A DNA stretch of 27,095 nt from a virus. Lineage: Duplodnaviria > Heunggongvirae > Uroviricota > Caudoviricetes. The translations under genes were made by a program, and so were the position numbers. The DNA lies in IMG/VR virus record IMGVR_UViG_2537562194_000033; one strand, 5' to 3'. The notes below the pieces were generated by a model. It was not told where the DNA came from. It ran no database searches and worked only from the letters and a program-made list of their open reading frames with translations. Positions 1-25,417 of this stretch are shown here, piece after piece (the first letter of the stretch is position 1; each line of letters opens with the position of its first letter).

Positions 1-501
1 CCGATATGTCTTCCATGCAGTCAGTAACGATGCCTCTTCCTCCGTCGCAATATCCAAATCTACGGCATCCTGAAGTGGCGCAATATGCTCACTGGCCATC
101 TGCATCAGGCTGTTTTTTGTTTCTTCCGCCTTCCGGATCCGGAACAGTTTTTCTGCTTCTGCATCTTTCACCCAGGCTGTGCCGTTCCACTTCTGAAACT
201 CCCCTTCCGGGGATAACCAGGTGACATTTTCCGGTAATGGGCCAAGTTCAGAAATAAATAACGCGTCGCCGGAAGCCACGTCATAGACGGTTTTTCCCCG
301 ATGGTCTTCAACGAGATTCCACGATGCCTCATCACTGTTGAAAACGGCCACGAAGCCAGCCGGAATATCTGGCGGGGCAATATCGGTACTGTTTGCAGGC
401 AGACCTGTATGAGGTGGAATGTATGCATCACCTTCACCAATAAACTCATTGGTTCCGGTCAGTAGATTATAAATTTTTATGGTCCGTGATTGTTCACTCA
501 T
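1..501 (-). CDS. tail fibre assembly protein (Tfa/gpG-like), 3' end cut by window edge
   Basis: Minus-strand frame is open from ATG at 501-499 to position 1 (checked every in-frame triplet for stops). Start lies 12 nt downstream of the tail fibre gene stop. Translation begins [20 protein letters not shown] and contains an ...[22 protein letters not shown] segment typical of phage tail fibre assembly chaperones. Absent from the ORF track because it has no stop inside the window. Confidence 0.75.
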
Positions 502-13857: not shown

Positions 13858-14311
13858 CGCGCTTCGCTTGTCTGCTGCTTCGCCGGGGCATAAAAAATTT
13901 ATGCCCCGACTCTCCAGCTCCTGTATCAGTCAGATAATTTCACGACGCTTTCCTGCTTATTGCCATCATCGACGGTCAGACTCTTACGCAATCCCACTGC
14001 GCTGACTGCATGTTCTCGCCGCCTCAGTGCGATTTTGACGGCCTTATCTTCCACCCCATCAAATCAAAAGCCCTCACGTATTTTTCACGCTCAGCGTGAG
14101 AAATACGGCCATTCTGTCGTGTCGCTGCGACATCGTTAAGGGAACGCTATTTACCCCCTGAAACGCGGGCTGTTCCCCCGTCACCTGCGCACAGGAAAAA
14201 CGCGTTTTTTGTGCACGCACGGATCCTTGACGGATCCAGCCGCCATGCGGGCCGGAAGGGCAAAAAGTCGTTCAAAAAAATTGTGCAAATTTGTGCACTT
14301 TTGTGCAAAGA
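13858..14311. other. cos / packaging region (position inferred from gene order only)
   Basis: Non-coding stretch between the portal gene and the cargo operon. In P2 the cohesive ends lie just beyond Q. Contains a perfect palindrome GGGGCATAAA-AAA-TTTATGCCCC at 13884-13906 and a GGATCC-N5-GGATCC motif near 14222-14238. The exact cos cut site was not identified. Confidence 0.3.
14209..14307. repeat. TTGTGCA(A/C) direct repeats, three at exact 10-bp spacing plus one upstream
   Basis: TTGTGCA at 14209, 14281, 14291 and 14301, each preceded by a T or A tract. Confidence 0.6.
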
Positions 14312-14336
14312 AATGCCCCTCAAATTGAGGGGCATT
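14312..14336 (-). terminator. putative intrinsic terminator of the cargo operon
   Basis: AATGCCCCTCAA-A-TTGAGGGGCATT inverted repeat starting 14 nt after the protease stop, followed on the minus strand by TCTTTG. Confidence 0.5.
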
Positions 14337-14349
14337 ATGTCTTGAAGGA

Positions 14350-16575
14350 TTACGAACGAATAGGAATTGATGTTTGCGGTTGAATTGGCACGAGCACCTG
14401 ATTATAAGTACGTAAAATTTCGTTATACAGGTCTTGGTGCTTTGATGCCTTAATGGTAATTATAAGAGCATACTTGATTTTTTCTGCCTTATGGCTGGCT
14501 ATGCTTGCACCGGCCTCACGAGCGTTATAATGAATGTCAAATACAGGATTTTTTAGAGTTGAACCTAGCATGTTCTTCGAATTATGTAAGACGGTCTCCC
14601 ATTTGCCCATGTCAGAACGTCGCTCACTTTCAGTTGAATATTTGGCCAGTTCAAAGAATCCCTTGGTTTCAGCATTTTGTTTTCCGTCTTTGATTTTTGA
14701 ATCATTTGGCCGGAATGTCACTTCCAAACCAGCTTTTGTATAGGAAGCTGGGTCTTGTGGATCAGTGGTTGTTGCATAACAGAAAGTTGCCGCTAAGTTT
14801 ATTCTACCTTTCAAGCCACCTTCAGGTATTGGAAGAGAAGCGCGTAAGTATTTTCCTGGTTTCAATTCACCTTGGTAGACGATACGGGCAACACCATCAG
14901 GGCTGACTATAATGTCGTTCAAGTCTTCAGGCAGTTTTCCCCAGCCAACTTCTGTACAAGGATGATCAAGCTGTTTTGACGCATGAATTAACAAAGCTTT
15001 GATTGCTAGTAGGCTCAAATCGTTCCCTAAAATTGCCCGAACACCAACAGCTGCTCGTAAGGCGTAAGGAGAGGCAAAGCTTGTTCCTAGCTGGGGTATG
15101 ATTACAGGCTTCTTACCTTTACCTAAAACATGAAAGTACTCGTCTGTGTCACCACCAAACGCAACTAAATCCGGTTTCATCACGCCAGGACTTCTGCCTG
15201 GCCCAATGGCGCTATATGGTGCTCGTTTCCATTCCGTATCATTAACTGTATCACAAGCACCAACAGCAAGAGCATTAACGCAATCGGCTGGTACTTGAAT
15301 TCTTGCATTACCAGACTTGCGATCCATTTCTCCATTGTTGCCAACAGCAACAGTCATTAATGTTTCACCATCACTTAACAAATCATCAATAACGGAAGTC
15401 CATGCATGAACTTCCGTATCTTCAATTGGTAGGTCTGGACCTAAACTTAGATTGATAAACTGATACTGGCGAGACAACAATACCTCTTCAATAAAGCCCA
15501 AAGTTCGATATAGTTCCAGCGGATCTTCTTGGCAGGTCTTGTTGTCCAAAACTCTTAAGTTATCAATATAAGAGTATGGTCTTTTCGCTTCCGATTTATT
15601 ACTTATTGGTCCAAATAAAAAGGCTGAAGACACAGCTAAACCATGCTCTAAACCGTCTGGATCATCCTCTGCATGATCGTCCAAAACTCTATAGGATTTT
15701 AACCATGGCGATATAGCGTGCTCTGATGGTAAACCACCATCAAGAATCGCAACTTTTATTTCTGAAGATACGGGGCCCTCAGCAGGTAATTTACACTGAG
15801 CTAAAGGACCGTAGTTCCTTTGTATTGGTCTAATCCCACGCAATCTTGGAACCGGTCTTATTACTCGTACAAATGTAAATTTCGCAAGCTTACTAATAGT
15901 AATTCTATCGGCCTGGATTGGCACGAACCATAATGTACCAGCGGTAAAAGCTAATGAAGTATGTACTTTGATGTTCAAATTTGATGCAAACTGAACAAAT
16001 TGTTGCTGAACCAAGTCTTGTTCATTATCTGACAGTAAATGAACACCAACCTCAAAATACGAAGAATCCTGCTCACCAATGGTAATAATACGCTCTTCGG
16101 GTAAATAGGCATCGAACCGTTCTATGCGTGCAAAATCAATCGCTTCGTCAGAAAACTCTTTGAGTCCTGACACCCAATGAGGTAACTCTTTGAAGGATTC
16201 TCTTTTACCAGCAACAAACATTTGTGTCGTAGTTACTTCTGACACAGTAACTTTTCGCTTCCAGCTTTGAGGCGTAATTTTTACCGTCCTGCTGCCAATA
16301 GACGTTAACCCGGTAGACTTAAGCATTTTTGCAGGAAAAAAAGAGCGTGCAATATAGCTTGGATTCAACGTCAACTTAGCCACAGCATAATCATAAGGAC
16401 ATGCCTGACTGGGTAAATCATCAAAATTTTCTATAGTAGATGCAATTTGCGGCAATAAACGTTGTTTCGATTCGTAAAGAGAATAAACCTCAGCTTTTCC
16501 GGGCACTCTTTTAGGACCAGGAATATCGCTGGTTAATAATTCGCCGCGTCCAATCAGAAAATTAGTTTTCGCCAT
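14350..16575 (-). CDS. S8 subtilisin-like serine protease with uncharacterised N- and C-terminal domains (IetS-like?)
   Basis: 741 aa, ATG at 16575 with AGGAG 6 nt upstream. Catalytic motifs in canonical order: D279 (VAILDGG), H311 (LEHGLAV), N413 (VAVGNNGE), S499 (LGTSFASP). Flanked by ~265 aa N-terminal and ~200 aa C-terminal regions with no motif I recognise. AT-rich relative to the phage core. Confidence 0.85.
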   Translation of the reverse strand: MAKTNFLIGRGELLTSDIPGPKRVPGKAEVYSLYESKQRLLPQIASTIENFDDLPSQACPYDYAVAKLTLNPSYIARSFFPAKMLKSTGLTSIGSRTVKITPQSWKRKVTVSEVTTTQMFVAGKRESFKELPHWVSGLKEFSDEAIDFARIERFDAYLPEERIITIGEQDSSYFEVGVHLLSDNEQDLVQQQFVQFASNLNIKVHTSLAFTAGTLWFVPIQADRITISKLAKFTFVRVIRPVPRLRGIRPIQRNYGPLAQCKLPAEGPVSSEIKVAILDGGLPSEHAISPWLKSYRVLDDHAEDDPDGLEHGLAVSSAFLFGPISNKSEAKRPYSYIDNLRVLDNKTCQEDPLELYRTLGFIEEVLLSRQYQFINLSLGPDLPIEDTEVHAWTSVIDDLLSDGETLMTVAVGNNGEMDRKSGNARIQVPADCVNALAVGACDTVNDTEWKRAPYSAIGPGRSPGVMKPDLVAFGGDTDEYFHVLGKGKKPVIIPQLGTSFASPYALRAAVGVRAILGNDLSLLAIKALLIHASKQLDHPCTEVGWGKLPEDLNDIIVSPDGVARIVYQGELKPGKYLRASLPIPEGGLKGRINLAATFCYATTTDPQDPASYTKAGLEVTFRPNDSKIKDGKQNAETKGFFELAKYSTESERRSDMGKWETVLHNSKNMLGSTLKNPVFDIHYNAREAGASIASHKAEKIKYALIITIKASKHQDLYNEILRTYNQVLVPIQPQTSIPIRS

Positions 16576-16598
16576 ACATACTCCTTATCTATGCTGTA

Positions 16599-17720
16599 TT
16601 ACATTTTTTGACTGTATTTTCTAATTGTATCCCTACTGACTCCGGTTAAGTCTGATATGGCATGCTGGGATAATTTAGAATTTCTTTTTAGAGTAACTGC
16701 AATTTCTTTACGTTCATTCCTGTCTAATTCTGATAAACCATCTTTAATGAACGACCCAATCAACTCTTCATCTGAGGAAATACCTAAAGCGACCGAACGT
16801 CGGAATTTGTTGATAGAACGCTCAATATTACTAAAAGATTCATTTTTGAACATAATAGCCAGTAGATCTATCCAACGTGCAAAAATCGCGTAGTCGGGAC
16901 CCGAAAAGCGTTTAATTGCTTCTTTAATACTTTCGCTATCTGGCTTCTCAAAATTGAGCACTAAATCAAAACGTCTCCATAGTGCTGGATCAATCAACTC
17001 AGCGAAGTTAGTTGCAGCAAGTAGCAAACTAGAAGACGGCCATTCGTCAACCTCCTGGAGTATCACGGTAACAAGTCTTTTTAATTCTCCAACATCAGAA
17101 TCATCACTTCTCTTTTTGGCGATTGAATCAATTTCATCTAACAGAAGAACGCACGGCCCTTTCTTCGCAAAATCTAGAGCTGCCCGAAGGTTATTTCCGC
17201 TTTTGCCCAGATAGCTGCTCATTACTGCCGTTAAATCAAGAACGTAAAAAGGAACCCCTAATTTCTGAGCTAACCAGCTTGCCGTAAGTGTTTTACCGAC
17301 ACCCGGAGGGCCAACAAAAATGGCAGAGCGTGTTGGTTGTAAGCCGAGAGTCTTGAGGCGATCGATGTGCTTCCGCTCAAGAATAATTTGATCCAGTGAG
17401 TCTTCTATCTGACTGGACAGTAGAGGTTTGCTCACAATCTTTTCATTTGGTGCTTTAAGCAAGGTAAGCCTTGACTCCTCGTCCACAGGCATGGTTTGAG
17501 GCAGCGCTTGTTTTGGTGCGGTAACCTTACGCAGGCTTTGTGCAGGCTTTTGCGGTTTATTTCGTAGATAAAGATCAAGCTGCTCGGATAGAGCAGGCAT
17601 AGTTTCCCGATATTTACGCACCAAGCGAGCGACATATAACCGAACGTCATCATACTGTTCAGTTATTACCAGTCTAACTAGTTGGGCTAAATCTGACTGA
17701 ATACCACCTAAGTCGCCCAT
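16599..17720 (-). CDS. AAA+ ATPase with C-terminal HTH-like tail (IetA-like?)
   Basis: 373 aa, ATG at 17720 with AAGAGG upstream. Walker A GPPGVGKT (K143), Walker B VLLLDEID, sensor-1 AATN, RR at 249-250. The last ~25 aa (SKLSQHAISDLTGVSRDTIRKY) look like a helix-turn-helix. Stop is 23 nt before the protease start, so the two are an operon. Confidence 0.85.
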   Translation of the reverse strand: MGDLGGIQSDLAQLVRLVITEQYDDVRLYVARLVRKYRETMPALSEQLDLYLRNKPQKPAQSLRKVTAPKQALPQTMPVDEESRLTLLKAPNEKIVSKPLLSSQIEDSLDQIILERKHIDRLKTLGLQPTRSAIFVGPPGVGKTLTASWLAQKLGVPFYVLDLTAVMSSYLGKSGNNLRAALDFAKKGPCVLLLDEIDSIAKKRSDDSDVGELKRLVTVILQEVDEWPSSSLLLAATNFAELIDPALWRRFDLVLNFEKPDSESIKEAIKRFSGPDYAIFARWIDLLAIMFKNESFSNIERSINKFRRSVALGISSDEELIGSFIKDGLSELDRNERKEIAVTLKRNSKLSQHAISDLTGVSRDTIRKYSQKM

Positions 17721-17900
17721 CTTAACTGTAACCTCTTGATTTTAAGTGAATTGAAAAAGCATTTAACTGGACTATTTATAGTATTGCACTTTTTTATCAA
17801 ACAGGGAAGAGGAATACTATATGAAATTACAGTGTGCCCCATGGAACGTCCTTACCATGTCTAAACTCTACCTTCATACAATTGATGATTTCTTTCTTGG
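17721..17900 (-). promoter_or_regulatory. AT-rich intergenic region, probable promoter of the cargo operon
   Basis: 180-bp AT-rich spacer between the A stop and the ATPase start. It contains TTGATA and TATAAA hexamers on the minus strand, but their spacing is not canonical, so the promoter is not pinned down. Confidence 0.3.
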
Positions 17901-20666
17901 TTATTTTTTCTTCTCGCTATTGCCTTTGTCCTGCAACAGACCCGCCTTGTGACGTGCGCGTTCAGTGGTTTCATTGATTCTCTGTGCGTGCTCTGCGTCA
18001 CGGATGGCGCGCAGCATGTCAGAAAGCACGGTAACGGGGGGGTTCATGGTGTTCTGGTCCTGCTGAAGTGTGGATACCAGGCGTGCGGCGGCTTCGGGGT
18101 CTGATGCCCCCAGCTGTTCCAGATAGCTGGCGACCGGGTTATGGCGGATCTCCGTGCTGCTTACGCCGTGATTACGGCTCAGGCGCTGCCAGAGCTGCGT
18201 GATTCGGCTGTCCGGGCGGGTATCCGGTTTGCGTACAATTTCAAATCCCTGCGGTGCAATGATGCTGCCGTCAACGTACAGGCTGCCGCCCCGTAACAGG
18301 TGCTGCATCTGCTGTTCACCGATATGCAGGCCGAGAGATTCAGCAGATTCCCGCCATTCTTTAGCGAGTAATTCGTGGTTATCAGGCAAAGGCCGCTGCT
18401 GTTTGCGGCTCTGTGTCCAGCTCTGCATTTCATCACTGCTGTTTTTTGCCTGTTTGTCACGCAGCGAACGCATCAGCGCCCGGCGTTCGTGCCGTTTCAG
18501 TGAGCGCATCCATTCGTTCACTTCAACGCCGTCAGGGAGCTGCGGCCACGGTGCTGGCCGTTCTTCCGGCTGTTCTGCCCCGTTGTTGTCCGTTTCCTGT
18601 ACACGGGGACAGTTATTGCCACGAGTCCAAGGGGCGGCAGGGCCGCCCTGAAGGTCAAAACCATTTTCGCGGGCGCTGTCTTCCGTTTCCGGTTTACGTC
18701 TTACCAGTTTCCAGTTATCCGGATGCGTGCACACACGGGAGGATTCCCCGATGAGTGGTGACCAGATCCCGTAAATCTGTACGCTCTGTTCGCCGTAATC
18801 ATTCAGCTCATCTGCGAGGTCGTAGGCGGTGCGAATCAGGTAGTCTTTGCGTGGAACAAGTACGCCGCCCTGTTTTTCAATGTAGGAGGCAAAACACCCG
18901 GCATCAGCGGCAGCGAGTACCGCATCCATTGCATCATCCTTCAGCCGTTGCGGGCCTTCCGGGTTGCGTGCCATCTGGCTGGCAAGGCGGCGGAGTTCAC
19001 GCCATACCTGACGGGAGGGGATGCCAAAGAACTGGAACTGGCGGACCCGATGAAGACGCGCCCAGCCAATGGCGCGCTCCACGCTCTCGGCCATTGATTT
19101 TCCGGTTTCGTGGTCAACGCGTGGCTTGCCCGTTTTCGGGTCGATGCCATCTACGGCGCGGCTGTCCAGGTTTTTTCCGATGTAGGTCGCGATATAGCTG
19201 GTTGGTGTGCCTTTTGAGCCGTCGACATACTCCGCCTTAAAGCGCGGAGTAATATCATCGCCCAGTTCGTGACGATCTTCCTGAATGGCAATATCGCGGG
19301 TGATGGCCACGATGCTGTCGATTTCTTCCGGATGAGCAAAGACCATCATATGCCAGTGCACGGTGCCGTCATGGTGAGGCTCCACCGTGCGGATGCCATA
19401 CCAGCGCAGGCCGTCGCGGTTCAGTTTTTTGCGGACCGCCGCAAAAAACGTGTTAACCAGGTAATCGCTGGAGTCGCGCATGGTGGCCCCGTTCCATTTG
19501 GGGTTCGGATGACCGTTCTCCGTTGTTGCGTGGTATTTTGACGGGCAGGTGACAGTCAGAAACACCGCTTTGTCACCACGGGCTTCGGCCAGAAGTTCCA
19601 GCCCCTTCATGGTGGCCATCATTTCTGCCTTACGGTGAACCGGGTTACTTACTCCCGCGTAATACACTGTCTCGAGATCAATCGTGAACCCGTCTTCATT
19701 TTCCAGCATGAAACTTTTCAGGAAATCGCGTGTTTTCTCGCGCTGTGCGCGAAACTCGCTTAACGCGTCCTGGCTCAGATAGGGCGATGTTTTTCTGGAA
19801 ACCAGACAGGCGGCGCGGAGTTGTTCTTCTCTCCACTCGCAACGTAACAGCCACAGTTTGCGTTTCCACCATTCCGCACAGGTCAGGCGAAGGATTGCGC
19901 CCGGCAGCAGCTCCGTGTCCGGTTCGTTCCTCCGGTCTTTGTCTGTTGTCAGTGCGTCATAATGTGGAGGCATGGCGTGCAGGTGTAACGCCATGCGGGC
20001 CAGCATCTGATACGCCTTCAGCGTTACATCCATGGTCAGTTCGCCATCGGTCGCGCCAAAGCCATCGCAGAGTTTTTCGAAGGTGCTGCTGAACATCGCC
20101 GCCGTCATGGTGGCCAGTGTCTGTATCTGGTGTTTGTTGAGCTGCGGCAGGTAAAGCAAATCGTCCAGGCGTTCGCGTCCGGCAAGGGAGCGATAACCCT
20201 GTGTCAGCCAGCGGTGATCGGTGCGCTCCAGACGTTCGAATATTTTGCGCAGGTTTCCGCGCGCGTAGCGTTCAGCCTGCCAGCTCTTTTTGCCTTTCTG
20301 ACGATCGGCTTCCTGTTTTTTGCGCAGGAAGGAGAGGTGGCGAATAAGCGGATCGCGCAGATAGGACGGCAGCAGGCGCAGCGAGGCCATGGCTTCATCC
20401 ACCGCGCCGCGTGCCTGTTTTCTGGCATCTCCTGCCAGTGTGATGGTTTTGTCCTGTTTTTCCTGTGCGTCCAGGCTTTTATTAATCAGGTTGCCCAGCG
20501 GCGTTGCGGAGAACGCCGCATCAGCCATTTCCTGGCGGCGCTCGTTCTCTACCCGGTAGGCATCCAGCCAGGAGGAAAGCGCGGATTCAGGAGCGGGGAT
20601 CCCCGTTCCTTCACGCCCCACTGCGTGGCGCGGTTGTTGCCAGTCCCTGATGTACTCTGCCGTCAT
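17901..20666 (-). CDS. A: replication initiation endonuclease gpA (rolling-circle initiator)
   Basis: 921 aa. Contains HHDGTVHWHMMVFA (HUH-like metal site) and YIATYIGK (catalytic Tyr region), as expected for the P2 A family. Confidence 0.9.
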   Translation of the reverse strand: MTAEYIRDWQQPRHAVGREGTGIPAPESALSSWLDAYRVENERRQEMADAAFSATPLGNLINKSLDAQEKQDKTITLAGDARKQARGAVDEAMASLRLLPSYLRDPLIRHLSFLRKKQEADRQKGKKSWQAERYARGNLRKIFERLERTDHRWLTQGYRSLAGRERLDDLLYLPQLNKHQIQTLATMTAAMFSSTFEKLCDGFGATDGELTMDVTLKAYQMLARMALHLHAMPPHYDALTTDKDRRNEPDTELLPGAILRLTCAEWWKRKLWLLRCEWREEQLRAACLVSRKTSPYLSQDALSEFRAQREKTRDFLKSFMLENEDGFTIDLETVYYAGVSNPVHRKAEMMATMKGLELLAEARGDKAVFLTVTCPSKYHATTENGHPNPKWNGATMRDSSDYLVNTFFAAVRKKLNRDGLRWYGIRTVEPHHDGTVHWHMMVFAHPEEIDSIVAITRDIAIQEDRHELGDDITPRFKAEYVDGSKGTPTSYIATYIGKNLDSRAVDGIDPKTGKPRVDHETGKSMAESVERAIGWARLHRVRQFQFFGIPSRQVWRELRRLASQMARNPEGPQRLKDDAMDAVLAAADAGCFASYIEKQGGVLVPRKDYLIRTAYDLADELNDYGEQSVQIYGIWSPLIGESSRVCTHPDNWKLVRRKPETEDSARENGFDLQGGPAAPWTRGNNCPRVQETDNNGAEQPEERPAPWPQLPDGVEVNEWMRSLKRHERRALMRSLRDKQAKNSSDEMQSWTQSRKQQRPLPDNHELLAKEWRESAESLGLHIGEQQMQHLLRGGSLYVDGSIIAPQGFEIVRKPDTRPDSRITQLWQRLSRNHGVSSTEIRHNPVASYLEQLGASDPEAAARLVSTLQQDQNTMNPPVTVLSDMLRAIRDAEHAQRINETTERARHKAGLLQDKGNSEKKK

Positions 20667-20672
20667 AGTGAT

Positions 20673-21038
20673 TTACTTCGTCATGCCATTCAGGGTGTCG
20701 CGGCAGACTGTAGCCAGCCGCTGAATTTCCAGCACGGTGTCTTCTGTGTCGGCATGGCGATGTGTGATGCGGATGCTGTCGGCAATCACATCGACGATTG
20801 CAGAGGATGGGCGCTGGTAAATGCCAATAACGGACGGGGTGCCACCTTCAATGCGGTAAAGCCTGTAATTTCCCTCGTGGCTGTCAATCATGTAGCGACC
20901 ATCAATAACAATCTTTCCGTCAGCGAGCTGCGGTACAGGCAGGGATTTCAGGTACATGTCATAACGATCACGCACGCGAGCGGCAAGATCACGTTCTGTG
21001 TTGAGCAGGTATTCAAGAAAGTCGTTGGCGAGAATCAT
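20673..21038 (-). CDS. hypothetical early-operon protein
   Basis: 121 aa, ATG at 21038, stop 7 nt before the A start. Position matches the small orfs upstream of A in P2-like phages. Confidence 0.6.
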   Translation of the reverse strand: MILANDFLEYLLNTERDLAARVRDRYDMYLKSLPVPQLADGKIVIDGRYMIDSHEGNYRLYRIEGGTPSVIGIYQRPSSAIVDVIADSIRITHRHADTEDTVLEIQRLATVCRDTLNGMTK

Positions 21039-21110
21039 TGCGGCAATCCTCTTGTTACAGATGTGCGAAGGCCTCCCGCCGCAAGGTGCAGGAAAGGCCC
21101 GGAACAGGAG

Positions 21111-21341
21111 TTAATGGAGTTTGTTTTGCTGCTGGATGAGCTGTTGAAGCTCGTGCAGATCATCCGCCAGATAGCTGAAAACAGAGGCGGAATAAATGTT
21201 TGATAGTGCGTGGCTGCGCTCATGCAGCATATTGATGTGCATGATTTGCGCGACGCGTGATGCGCGGGAAAGTCTGCGGTTGATTTCAGTCTGGATGTGA
21301 CGACGCTCCGCGATAGCGCGGTGTGGTTTGCGGTTTGCCAT
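21111..21341 (-). CDS. hypothetical basic protein (Arg/His-rich)
   Basis: 76 aa, ATG at 21341 with GGGG upstream. Function unknown. Confidence 0.5.
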   Translation of the reverse strand: MANRKPHRAIAERRHIQTEINRRLSRASRVAQIMHINMLHERSHALSNIYSASVFSYLADDLHELQQLIQQQNKLH

Positions 21342-21443
21342 GGTGTGGCCCCTTGTGTAGTAAGTTGTGAAAACTCACCATCCAGAGCTGCGAAACTGTG
21401 GGGGGCGAGACGTACGAGGTTCGCAGTACCGGCTACACAAGAA

Positions 21444-21462
21444 CCCGGCCCGACCGAAGTCG
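21444..21462 (-). ncRNA. UUCG-tetraloop hairpin inside a structured non-coding island
   Basis: On the transcribed (minus) strand, CCGAC-UUCG-GUCGG with flanking GG/CC extension, sitting in a 320-bp non-coding gap (21342-21663) rich in dyad symmetry. Confidence 0.35.
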
Positions 21463-21530
21463 GCCCCGTACGCCCCGCCATAATTCTGACGCGAAAAAAA
21501 CGTGGCAATACAGTACGCACAAAAAAACCG

Positions 21531-21551
21531 CTGGCGCGGTTGTGCGCTTGT
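21531..21551 (-). terminator. putative intrinsic terminator/attenuator within the early operon
   Basis: On the minus strand, ACCGC-GCCA-GCGGT followed by a 7-U run (the A run at 21531-21537 on the plus strand). The stem is short. Confidence 0.35.
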
Positions 21552-21663
21552 GTAGTCAGCAGGCTGCGAAACCCGGCACCCGTTTTGTGAGGTGCAGCGG
21601 AAATGTAACCTGACTGATTGCGGCATGGCAAGCGGTTTTTTTGTGTGTGCATGTTCTGGTTTC

Positions 21664-24203: not shown

Positions 24204-24530
24204 ATGACTAAAAATACTCGTTTTTCCCCCGAAGTCCGTCAGCGGGCGATTCGTATGGTTCTGGAAAGTCAGGATGAATATGACTCACAGTGGGCGGCAA
24301 TTTGTTCCATTGCCCCAAAGATTGGCTGTACGCCGGAGACTCTGCGTGTCTGGGTTCGCCAGCATGAGCGGGATACCGGGGGCGGTGATGGTGGGCTCAC
24401 CAGCGCTGAACGTCAGCGTCTGAAAGAGCTGGAACGTGAAAATCGTGAACTGCGCCGCAGTAACGATATCCTTCGCCAGGCTTCCGCTTATTTTGCGAAG
24501 GCGGAGTTCGACCGCCTCTGGAAAAAATGA
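24204..24530 (+). CDS. IS3-family transposase OrfA (HTH and leucine-zipper part)
   Basis: 108 aa. The -1 frame relationship to orfB at the A6 run (24522-24527) fits the programmed frameshift typical of IS3-family elements. Confidence 0.9.
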
Positions 24531-25417
24531 TGCCACTGCTGGATAAGCTGCGTGAGCAGTACGGGGTCGGACCGGTATGCAGCGAACTGCATATTGCCCC
24601 GTCAACGTATTACCATTGTCAGCAACAGCGACATCATCCGGATAAACGCAGTGCCCGTGCGCAGCACGACGACTGGCTGAAGAGAGAGATACAGCGCGTA
24701 TACGATGAAAATCATCAGGTGTACGGTGTGCGTAAAGTCTGGCGTCAGTTGTTACGGGAAGGAATCAGGGTGGCCAGATGTACAGTGGCACGTCTCATGG
24801 CGGTTATGGGACTTGCCGGTGTTCTCCGGGGTAAAAAGGTCCGTACGACCATCAGCCGGAAAGCCGTTGCCGCAGGCGACCGCGTAAACCGTCAGTTCGT
24901 GGCAGAACGACCTGACCAGCTGTGGGTGGCTGATTTTACTTACGTCAGCACATGGCAGGGCTTCGTCTATGTGGCGTTTATCATTGATGTGTTTGCCGGA
25001 TACATCGTGGGGTGGCGGGTCTCATCGTCTATGGAAACGACATTCGTGCTGGATGCGCTGGAGCAGGCGTTGTGGGCCCGTCGTCCGTCTGGCACCATCC
25101 ATCACAGCGATAAAGGCTCTCAGTATGTGTCACTGGCCTATACGGAGCGACTAAAAGAAGCCGGATTACTGGCATCAACAGGGAGTACAGGCGACTCGTA
25201 TGACAACGCGATGGCTGAGAGCATCAATGGTCTTTACAAAGCGGAGGTAATACACCGTAAGAGCTGGAAAAACCGTGCAGAAGTGGAACTGGCCACACTA
25301 ACGTGGGTGGACTGGTATAACAATCGACGATTGCTGGGAAGGCTGGGCCATACTCCTCCGGCAGAAGCAGAAAAAGCTTATTATGCTTCCATCGGAAACG
25401 ATGATCTGGCAGCCTGA
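24527..25417 (+). CDS. IS3-family transposase OrfB (DDE catalytic domain)
   Basis: 296 aa with an rve-type integrase core (WVADFTYV...HSDKGSQY...[14 protein letters not shown]). Confidence 0.9.

What the first reader, a model, noticed from the sequence alone, without database searches (positions are those of the whole stretch)
14350..16575. Subtilase carries large unassigned N-terminal and C-terminal regions
The catalytic core occupies roughly residues 270-540. Residues 1-265 and 545-741 show no motif I can assign. The N-terminal part could be a pro-domain or inhibitor, or a phage-sensing or ATPase-docking domain. The C-terminal part is rich in predicted beta-type sequence (e.g. GRINLAATFCYATTTDP) and could be a target-recognition or membrane-association module.
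Basis: inference. Interest (0 to 1): 0.5.

Follow-up and report, generated by a model that had tools for sequence, protein, structure and literature searches.

The report
IetS protease of prophage IetAS defence
The gene is the protease half (IetS) of a known two-gene toxin-antitoxin and anti-phage module carried by a P2-like prophage of E. coli; its two "unassigned" ends model as a doubled pro-peptide-like cap and a beta-sandwich, fold types common in subtilases, so the finding is real but largely ordinary.

Summary
ORF 14350-16575 (minus strand, 741 aa) has one Pfam domain, Peptidase_S8 at residues 271-546. The triad is D279/H311/S499. About 270 N-terminal and 195 C-terminal residues match no Pfam family.

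The protein is not an orphan. With the AAA+ gene just upstream (16599-17720) it forms an IetA/IetS pair. IetAS was first described as the pTiC58 toxin-antitoxin system and later as an anti-phage system. Here it sits in the replication-gene/portal hotspot of a P2-like E. coli prophage.

Full-length IetS profiles (PADLOC, PHROG) cover both flanks. So does an hhalign comparison with an NCBI-annotated IteS. The roughly 740-aa layout holds down to about 33% identity.

- a conserved N-terminal peptide on a Pro/Gly-rich stretch, then a helix;
- two ferredoxin-like units, the second placed like a subtilase pro-domain;
- a variable linker and the catalytic core;
- a C-terminal jelly-roll, as in KP-43 and Tk-SP.

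There is no signal peptide or membrane segment.

My inferred mechanism is a cytoplasmic zymogen held off by the Cdc48-like IetA until infection. Papers from 2025-2026 still call the IetAS mechanism unknown.

Verdict: new member of a known kind, modest interest.

The parts
14350..16575 (-). ietS: 741-aa cytoplasmic S8 subtilase, the toxin/effector of IetAS
   Evidence: ORF. PADLOC IetS PDLC02197 E 1.1e-51 covering residues 36-726. PHROG 3964 full length, E 8e-255. hhalign against an NCBI-annotated IteS: probability 99.8%, 644 columns.
16534..16563 (-). Conserved N-terminal peptide N5-FLIGRGEL-L14, followed by a Pro/Gly-rich stretch (residues 16-29)
   Evidence: G9, G11 and L14 are each >=94% conserved in a 117-sequence alignment with 35% mean column identity. 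Relaxed forms occur in Pf, Paenibacillus and Enterobacter phage homologues. pLDDT is 90-95 with the deep alignment.
16108..16389 (-). N1: first ferredoxin-like beta-alpha-beta-beta-alpha-beta unit (residues 63-156), preceded by helix 33-52
   Evidence: AlphaFold secondary-structure order. Foldseek hits to tandem ACT domains. The most conserved non-core stretch, KLTLNPSYIARSFFP, lies here.
15853..16059 (-). N2: second ferredoxin-like unit (residues 173-241), in the position of a subtilase I9-type pro-domain
15838..15879 (-). Conserved end of N2: F233-x-F-x-R237-x-x-R240-x-(M/V)-P-x-L-R246. Candidate pseudo-substrate or autoprocessing segment (inference).
   Evidence: R237 is invariant, R240 97%, P243 84%, L245 79%, R246 87% (true numbering).
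15763..15837 (-). Variable linker (residues 247-271) between N2 and the core
   Evidence: Highest column entropy in the protein (3.08), insertion hot spots, and a pLDDT dip to 74-78.
14938..15765 (-). Peptidase_S8 catalytic core (residues 271-546): D279, H311, S499, oxyanion N413
14368..14907 (-). C-terminal jelly-roll beta-sandwich (residues 557-736), with a lower-confidence insert around 642-661
16599..17720 (-). ietA: 373-aa classic-clade AAA+ ATPase (the antitoxin partner) with a weak C-terminal helix-turn-helix signal
   Evidence: PADLOC IetA E 1e-77. Pfam AAA at residues 134-258 and weak HTH hits at 339-369. Cdc48/VAT-like, E 3e-47. Walker A at residue 137, pore-loop SYLG at 169, Walker B at 192.
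16581..16585 (-). Shine-Dalgarno AGGAG for ietS, in the 23-nt gap after the ietA stop codon
   Evidence: Read directly from the sequence.
17771..17821 (-). Promoter-like site TTGATA-18-AATAGT, bracketed by an inverted repeat ATAGTATT / AATACTAT, upstream of ietA
   Evidence: Consensus scan and inverted-repeat search. These are consensus matches only; function was not tested.
14283..14298 (-). Terminator-like hairpin with a T run, about 55 nt after the ietS stop codon

Best explanation
The ORF encodes IetS, the subtilase toxin/effector of an IetA/IetS module. IetAS is a known toxin-antitoxin and anti-phage system. Here it is carried as cargo in the hotspot between the replication endonuclease gene and the portal gene of a P2-like E. 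coli prophage.

Shown here:
- The two 'unassigned' regions are conserved parts of the IetS family.
- The N-terminal 270 residues comprise a conserved docking-type peptide (NFLIGRGELL) followed by a Pro/Gly-rich stretch, a long helix, and two ferredoxin-like units.
- The C-terminal 190 residues form a jelly-roll beta-sandwich, co-aligned with the core as in KP-43 and Tk-SP.
- The protein has no signal peptide and no membrane segment, so it acts in the cytoplasm.

Inferred:
- The second ferredoxin-like unit (N2) sits against the catalytic domain as the pro-peptide does in pro-subtilisins.
- N2 caps the active site. The conserved R-x-x-R-x-M/V-P-x-L-R246 segment lies in or near the substrate cleft, so IetS is made as a tethered zymogen.
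- IetA is a Cdc48-like AAA+ ATPase with an intact aromatic pore loop. It uses ATP to keep IetS in, or return it to, the inactive state. The conserved N-terminal peptide and N1 are the likeliest handle for this.
- When infection disables or distracts IetA, IetS matures and cleaves cellular or phage proteins, which aborts the infection.
For: Identity:
- PADLOC IetS E 1e-51 and IetA E 1e-77.
- PHROG full-length hits for both proteins.
- hhalign to an NCBI-annotated IteS: probability 99.8% over 644 columns that span N, core and C.
- The AAA-then-S8 gene order is kept in Nitrosomonas, Stenotrophomonas, Enterobacter phage phiT5282H (same gpA-portal slot), the inovirus PfAC08 (annotated IetAS) and Paenibacillus phages.

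Context:
- 100% identical to a P2-like prophage of E. coli 95NR1.
- GC falls to 0.39-0.45 across the pair, against about 0.55 in the flanks.

Architecture:
- AlphaFold model with pLDDT 92.7 and pTM 0.93.
- The same two fold classes come up with the independent first model.
- Conservation order is core > C > tail and N1 > N2 > linker.
- Highest 19-residue Kyte-Doolittle hydropathy average is 1.54, so no membrane segment.

IetA:
- Cdc48/VAT-like (E 3e-47), with Walker A, Walker B, an SYLG pore loop and arginine-finger motifs.

Genetics from the literature:
- IetS is the toxin and IetA the antitoxin. Protease activity is needed for defence. A mutated ietA could not be cloned (PMC13069673).
- A related AAA/subtilase pair is a working toxin-antitoxin system in mycoplasmas (PMC8562856).
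Against: - No sequence similarity to Inhibitor_I9, PPC or P_proprotein was found in the query or in 65 relatives.
- The score against the NCBIfam IteS equivalog model is far below its cut-off (135 against 900 bits). This is therefore a different clade from the one that model was built on. No member of this clade was found tested in the literature searched.
- The direction of IetA's action (repressor or activator/feeder) rests on published genetics from other homologues.
Confidence: 0.6

Rival explanations
1. IetA and IetS form a two-component ATP-dependent protease, analogous to PAN or Cdc48 with the 20S proteasome, or to ClpXP. IetA unfolds selected (phage) proteins and feeds them to IetS. 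The N- and C-terminal domains mainly build the oligomer and the docking surface for the ATPase ring. IetS alone is toxic because it is then ungated.
For: IetA is a classic-clade unfoldase type with an aromatic-hydrophobic-Gly pore loop. The C-domain is nearly as conserved as the core, with invariant W659 and R686, which would fit a conserved interface. Gene order is fixed and the two genes are closely spaced or overlapping.
Against: There is no evidence that IetS self-compartmentalises. Subtilases are normally open monomers. Published genetics describe IetA as an antitoxin. The pro-domain-like position of N2 points to inhibition in cis.
Confidence: 0.2
2. The tandem ferredoxin-like N-region is an ACT-like ligand-binding sensor. 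It would switch the protease on when it binds a small molecule produced during infection, rather than acting as a pro-domain-type inhibitor.
For: N2 is the fastest-evolving folded part of the protein.
Confidence: 0.12
3. The flanks are ordinary folding and stability accessories (an intramolecular chaperone and a stabilising beta-domain, as in Tk-SP and KP-43) with no role in sensing or in communication with IetA. Regulation happens elsewhere.
For: The fold classes and relative domain placement match those of ordinary secreted subtilases. In Tk-SP the jelly-roll domain is described as a stability element (my own knowledge, not checked here).
Against: The doubled unit, the conserved N-terminal peptide and the invariant residues outside the core are kept across the 117 diverse relatives aligned, down to about 31% identity. 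The protein is cytoplasmic, where a pro-peptide coupled to secretion makes little sense.
Confidence: 0.2

Closest known systems
IetA/IetS (IetAS, 'Gao_Iet'; NCBI spelling IteA/IteS): the pTiC58 plasmid-stability toxin-antitoxin system and anti-phage system
   Same: An AAA+ gene followed by a subtilase of about 740 aa. Full-length profile matches. The same three-part protease layout. Carried on mobile elements.
   Different: Only about 21-23% identical to an NCBI-annotated IteS. The score is below the NCBIfam equivalog cut-off. This is a distinct clade, and no member of it was found tested in the literature searched.
Pro-subtilisins with an I9 pro-peptide (subtilisin E/BPN', PCSK9, EpiP, Tk-SP)
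   Different: No I9 sequence signal. Two units instead of one, plus a helix and a conserved N-terminal peptide. No signal peptide. Autoprocessing is not known.
KP-43 and Tk-SP type subtilases with a C-terminal beta-barrel or jelly-roll domain; PPC and P-domains
   Different: The IetS domain is larger (about 180 aa) and has an insert around residues 642-661. It has its own invariant residues and gives no PPC or P_proprotein Pfam match.
Intracellular subtilisin proteases (ISPs) with an inhibitory N-terminal extension (LIPY/F motif)
   Same: A cytoplasmic subtilase with a short conserved N-terminal peptide that might fold back on the enzyme. This resemblance comes from my own knowledge and was not tested here.
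   Different: ISPs lack the 240-aa ferredoxin-like module and the AAA+ partner.
Trip13-HORMA regulation in CBASS
   Same: An AAA+ remodeller that keeps an immune effector pathway switched off. The IetA AAA domain gives a weak TRIP13 profile hit (E 2e-15).
   Different: The substrate and effector are different. The resemblance is functional analogy only.
Mycoplasma TA132/133 AAA-ATPase/subtilisin toxin-antitoxin system
   Same: The same gene pair logic and similar sizes (353 aa plus 757 aa). Toxicity and its neutralisation were shown experimentally (PMC8562856).
   Different: Chromosomal, in Mollicutes. Its sequence relation to this clade was not measured here.

Membership tests
IetAS (IetS component) | S8 subtilase with an intact Asp/His/Ser triad | tested here: met
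   PF00082 E 2.5e-19. D279, H311, S499 and N413 are invariant in 117 homologues.
IetAS (IetS component) | Full-length similarity to IetS family profiles, including the N- and C-terminal regions | tested here: met
   PADLOC PDLC02197 covers residues 36-726 of a 749-position profile. hhalign to an annotated IteS: 99.8% probability, columns 44-729.
IetAS (IetS component) | NCBIfam IteS_antiphage equivalog score at or above the cut-off of 900 bits | tested here: not met
   135.3 bits. The protein belongs to the family but is not the same equivalog clade.
IetAS (system) | Adjacent, co-oriented classic AAA+ ATPase (IetA) immediately upstream | tested here: met
   ORF 16599-17720. PADLOC IetA E 1e-77. 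23-nt gap between the genes. NCBIfam IteA scores 223 bits, below its cut-off of 510.
IetAS (system) | Toxin-antitoxin behaviour and protection against phage | not testable with these tools
   Known only from the literature on other homologues.
Inhibitor_I9 subtilase pro-peptide | Sequence match to PF05922 | tested here: not met
   No hit at E<=10 for residues 1-265. No hit in 65 members at E<=0.1.
Inhibitor_I9 subtilase pro-peptide | Beta-alpha-beta-beta-alpha-beta fold placed on the catalytic domain directly N-terminal to it | tested here: inconclusive
Inhibitor_I9 subtilase pro-peptide | Autocatalytic cleavage at the pro/mature junction | not testable with these tools
   The candidate site after L245-R246 is inference only.
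PPC / P-domain / KP-43-type C-terminal beta-domain | Sequence match to PF04151 or PF01483 | tested here: not met
   No Pfam family at E<=10 for residues 545-741.
PPC / P-domain / KP-43-type C-terminal beta-domain | Jelly-roll beta-sandwich packed on the S8 core | tested here: met
P2-like prophage defence hotspot cargo | Located between the replication endonuclease (gpA-like) gene and the portal gene, with foreign base composition | tested here: met
   RefSeq annotation of the identical locus. GC dip. A 38%-identical pair occupies the same slot in phage phiT5282H.

The most novel reading that the evidence does not exclude
IetS is a cytoplasmic, covalently tethered pro-subtilase whose doubled pro-domain and conserved N-terminal peptide are the handle for the AAA+ IetA. 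IetA continually resets the protease to its inhibited state. When a phage interferes with IetA, IetS cleaves itself at the conserved M/V-P-x-L-R246 segment and the protease is released. This would be an ATP-dependent 'dead-man switch', a regulatory logic I know of for neither subtilases nor toxin-antitoxin systems.
Probability: 0.2. Interest if true: 0.6.

Novelty: new member of a known kind. Interest (0 to 1): 0.3.

Why it matters
IetAS is widespread. The protease family has more than 1600 clusters at 50% identity. It is found in P2-like, Pf and Paenibacillus phages, on plasmids and in chromosomes. Papers from 2025 and 2026 still state that its mechanism is unknown. Showing that the protease looks like a tethered zymogen with a doubled pro-domain, a conserved N-terminal peptide and a conserved jelly-roll gives concrete, mutable targets: G9/G11/E12, R237/R240/R246, W659/R686. 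These can be used to test how an AAA+ antitoxin controls a protease toxin. For the genome scan itself, the result is mainly an annotation: a known defence module in a known prophage hotspot.

Tried and rejected
- **Literature searches.** Two searches with poorly chosen terms returned mostly noise. Gao et al. 2020 is not held. No structural or mechanistic IetAS paper was found.
- **PDB sequence searches.** Searches with the protein and with a family profile found only the subtilisin core. No IetS-like structure is solved.
- **Internal repeat test.** hhalign of N1 against N2, and of each against C, found no sequence similarity. The duplication is seen only at the fold level.
- **Lenient Pfam scans.** Scans of the flanks and of 65 relatives found nothing beyond S8.
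- **Membrane association or secretion.** Rejected: the highest 19-residue Kyte-Doolittle hydropathy average is 1.54 and the N-terminus is not a signal peptide.
- **P2 cos site.** A search for the sequence as I recalled it found no match. Dropped.
- **Conservation of the ietA upstream inverted repeat.** Each of five other loci has some repeat, but with unrelated sequence. Inconclusive.
- **Rfam.** Nothing inside the finding.
- **Covariation analysis for tail contacts.** Not attempted. There are too few sequences and the tail is too conserved.
- My protein queries started at 16572 and so lacked Met1. Corrected.

Full report
**What is there**

The finding's coordinates are exactly one ORF on the minus strand, 14350..16575, encoding 741 aa. 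An AGGAG ribosome-binding site lies 5 nt before the ATG. The ORF starts 23 nt after the stop codon of an upstream 373-aa ORF at 16599..17720.

Pfam finds a single domain, Peptidase_S8, at residues 271-546 (E 2.5e-19). The triad D279/H311/S499 and the oxyanion residue N413 are invariant in 117 diverse homologues.

Residues 1-265 and 545-741 were scanned on their own at E<=10 and match no Pfam family. Of 65 diverse relatives, none hits anything but S8.

Numbering note: my protein queries began at 16572 and so lacked Met1. Positions printed are one lower than the true numbering used here (checked).

**What the gene is**

PADLOC identifies the two ORFs as IetS (E 1.1e-51, covering residues 36-726 of a 749-position profile) and IetA (E 1e-77). 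PHROGs has full-length families for both proteins.

The NCBIfam models IteS_antiphage and IteA_antiphage also match end to end, but well below their equivalog cut-offs (135 against 900 bits and 223 against 510 bits). A profile-profile comparison with an NCBI-annotated IteS from a Dongshaea plasmid gives 99.8% probability over 644 columns. These columns run from the N-terminal helix to the end of the C-domain, at about 21-23% identity.

The protein is therefore a true member of the IetS family, from a clade distant from the one the NCBIfam equivalog model was built on.

**Genomic context**

The window is 100% identical to a P2-like prophage of E. coli 95NR1, integrated next to pdxB. The pair sits between the replication endonuclease (gpA-like) gene and the portal gene. 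GC falls from about 0.55 to 0.39-0.45 across the pair. Forty-three of 5426 complete E. coli genomes carry the full 4-kb segment.

A 38%-identical AAA/S8 pair occupies the same slot in Enterobacter phage phiT5282H. Other pairs lie in the inovirus PfAC08 (annotated IetAS by its authors) and in Paenibacillus phages. The AAA-then-S8 order also holds in Nitrosomonas and Stenotrophomonas chromosomes. This gpA-portal interval is where P2 carries tin and old (my own knowledge); hotspots of anti-phage systems in P2-like phages are described in PMC9122126.

**How conserved the flanks are**

An exhaustive search of cluster representatives at 50% identity finds 1621 clusters (542 at E<1e-30). Nearly all listed hits are about 740 aa long and aligned from residue 2-4 to residue 735-740, down to 33% identity.

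Conservation falls in the order core > C-domain > N-terminal tail and N1 > N2 > linker. This holds both among close relatives and among distant ones. Domain lengths are kept and no domain swaps were seen.

Residues outside the core that are invariant or nearly so include:
- G9, G11 and L14 in the tail, and Y31 just after it;
- P81 and G94 in N1;
- R237 and R240 at the end of N2;
- W659 and R686 in the C-domain.

**Structure**

A first AlphaFold run on a shallow alignment was poor (pLDDT 56.9). A run on 117 diverse sequences gave pLDDT 92.7 and pTM 0.93. In true numbering, the secondary-structure order reads:
- N-terminal peptide 5-18, with short strands;
- a Pro/Gly-rich stretch, 16-29;
- helix 33-52;
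- unit N1, residues 63-156, with beta-alpha-beta-beta-alpha-beta topology;
- unit N2, residues 173-241, with the same topology;
- a variable linker, 247-271, with lower pLDDT;
- the catalytic core;
- a mostly-beta domain, 557-736.

- Unprocessed ProN-Tk-SP aligns over 401 residues and unprocessed pro-subtilisin E over 302.
- Catalytic-only chains align over 229-252 residues.
- The extra aligned residues imply that a pro-peptide-like unit and a C-terminal sandwich occupy equivalent positions relative to the core. This is an inference from aligned lengths, because the coordinates could not be inspected.

Single-domain matches fall into two classes.

These share the ferredoxin-like fold.

N1 and N2 show no detectable sequence similarity to each other. 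No IetS-like structure is in the PDB, by sequence or by fold. The highest 19-residue Kyte-Doolittle hydropathy average is 1.54 and there is no signal peptide. The protein is therefore cytoplasmic, and a membrane role for the C-domain is not supported.

**The partner**

IetA's AAA domain resembles Cdc48, p97 and VAT (E 3e-47). It carries the following motifs:
- Walker A, GPPGVGKT, at residue 137;
- Walker B, LLLDEID, at residue 192;
- a pore-loop-1 motif, S-Y-L-G, at residue 169, aligned with the W-F-G of the Cdc48 D2 ring;
- the second-region-of-homology arginines.

It also gives weak C-terminal helix-turn-helix hits at residues 339-369.

The papers read report the following:
- IetS is the toxin and IetA the antitoxin of a plasmid-stability system.
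- Protease activity is required for phage defence.
- A mutated ietA could not be cloned.
- A related AAA/subtilase pair is a functional toxin-antitoxin system in mycoplasmas (PMC8562856).

**Most likely mechanism**

Shown:
- The pair belongs to the IetAS family.
- The fold classes are two ferredoxin-like units at the N-terminus and a jelly-roll at the C-terminus.
- The protein is cytoplasmic.
- The catalytic site is intact.
- The partner is of the unfoldase type.

Inferred:
- N2 acts as a covalently attached pro-domain that caps the active site.
- The conserved R237-x-x-R240-x-M/V-P-x-L-R246 segment lies in or near the substrate cleft. The hypervariable linker then loops back to the start of the core.
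- IetA uses ATP to keep or reset this inhibited state. The conserved N-terminal peptide and N1 are the probable handle for it.
- Interference with IetA during infection lets IetS mature and cleave cellular or phage proteins.
- The C-terminal jelly-roll is at least a structural partner of the core, as in KP-43 and Tk-SP. Its near-core level of conservation suggests an additional interface role.

Rival readings are:
- a split ATP-dependent protease in which IetA feeds substrates to IetS;
- an ACT-like small-molecule sensor in the N-region;
- purely structural accessory domains with no regulatory role.

**Verdict**

The 'pro-domain or inhibitor' guess is partly supported. Membrane association is not supported, and ATPase docking could not be tested.

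The fold types are the standard subtilase accessories, but with family-specific elaborations and no sequence relationship to the standard accessory families.

The system itself is already known and is detected by standard defence-finding tools. I rate this locus a new member of a known kind, with modest interest. Its main value is a set of specific, testable residues for a system whose mechanism the papers read still describe as unknown.

Noticed in passing
window 17771-17821 (minus strand), upstream of ietA: An inverted repeat, ATAGTATT ... AATACTAT (15-nt arms, 87% complementary), brackets the -35 hexamer of a promoter-like site. IetA has weak C-terminal helix-turn-helix hits at residues 339-369. 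Together these suggest toxin-antitoxin-style autoregulation. Five other IetAS loci each have some upstream inverted repeat, but with unrelated sequences.
   Followed up: partly
window 24204-25417: An IS3-family IS1203 element, with its ALIL frameshift pseudoknot (Rfam RF01497, 24485-24601), is inserted in the prophage early region between the cox-like gene and the repressor-side genes. The prophage may therefore be disabled.
   Followed up: no
window 21398-21485 and 21521-21595 (minus strand): Rfam finds a C4 antisense RNA (77 bits) and an isrK Hfq-binding sRNA (64 bits). Both lie in a gap of the RefSeq protein annotation, where a mechanical 205-aa ORF (21035-21652) is also listed.
   Followed up: no
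window 1-170 (minus strand): Rfam IS009 RNA match (167 bits), cut off by the window edge. It lies in the tail-fibre region.
   Followed up: no
window 17901-20666 (minus strand): The gpA-like replication endonuclease is 921 aa. That is longer than the P2 gpA length I recall (about 761 aa, my own knowledge). It matches both PHROG 91 and PHROG 6857.
   Followed up: no
window 13858-14349: The 490-bp non-coding stretch between the portal gene and ietS holds several palindromes: 13884-13908, 14077-14107, 14186-14219 and 14312-14336. The P2 cos sequence as I recalled it was not found here. This may be the cos and terminator region of a 186-like or P2-like phage.
   Followed up: partly
L004 and L005 (Stenotrophomonas), about 0.7 kb upstream of the IetAS pair and 4.4 kb downstream: A Trypsin_2 protease gene lies divergently upstream of the AAA/S8 pair and a Schlafen-group-3-type helicase gene lies downstream. 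This suggests a defence-island setting there.
   Followed up: no
plasmid NZ_CP077309.1 (Enterobacter hormaechei), hits H11/H61: A 90%-identical ietS copy is interrupted by an IS3-like ISEc52 element.
   Followed up: no
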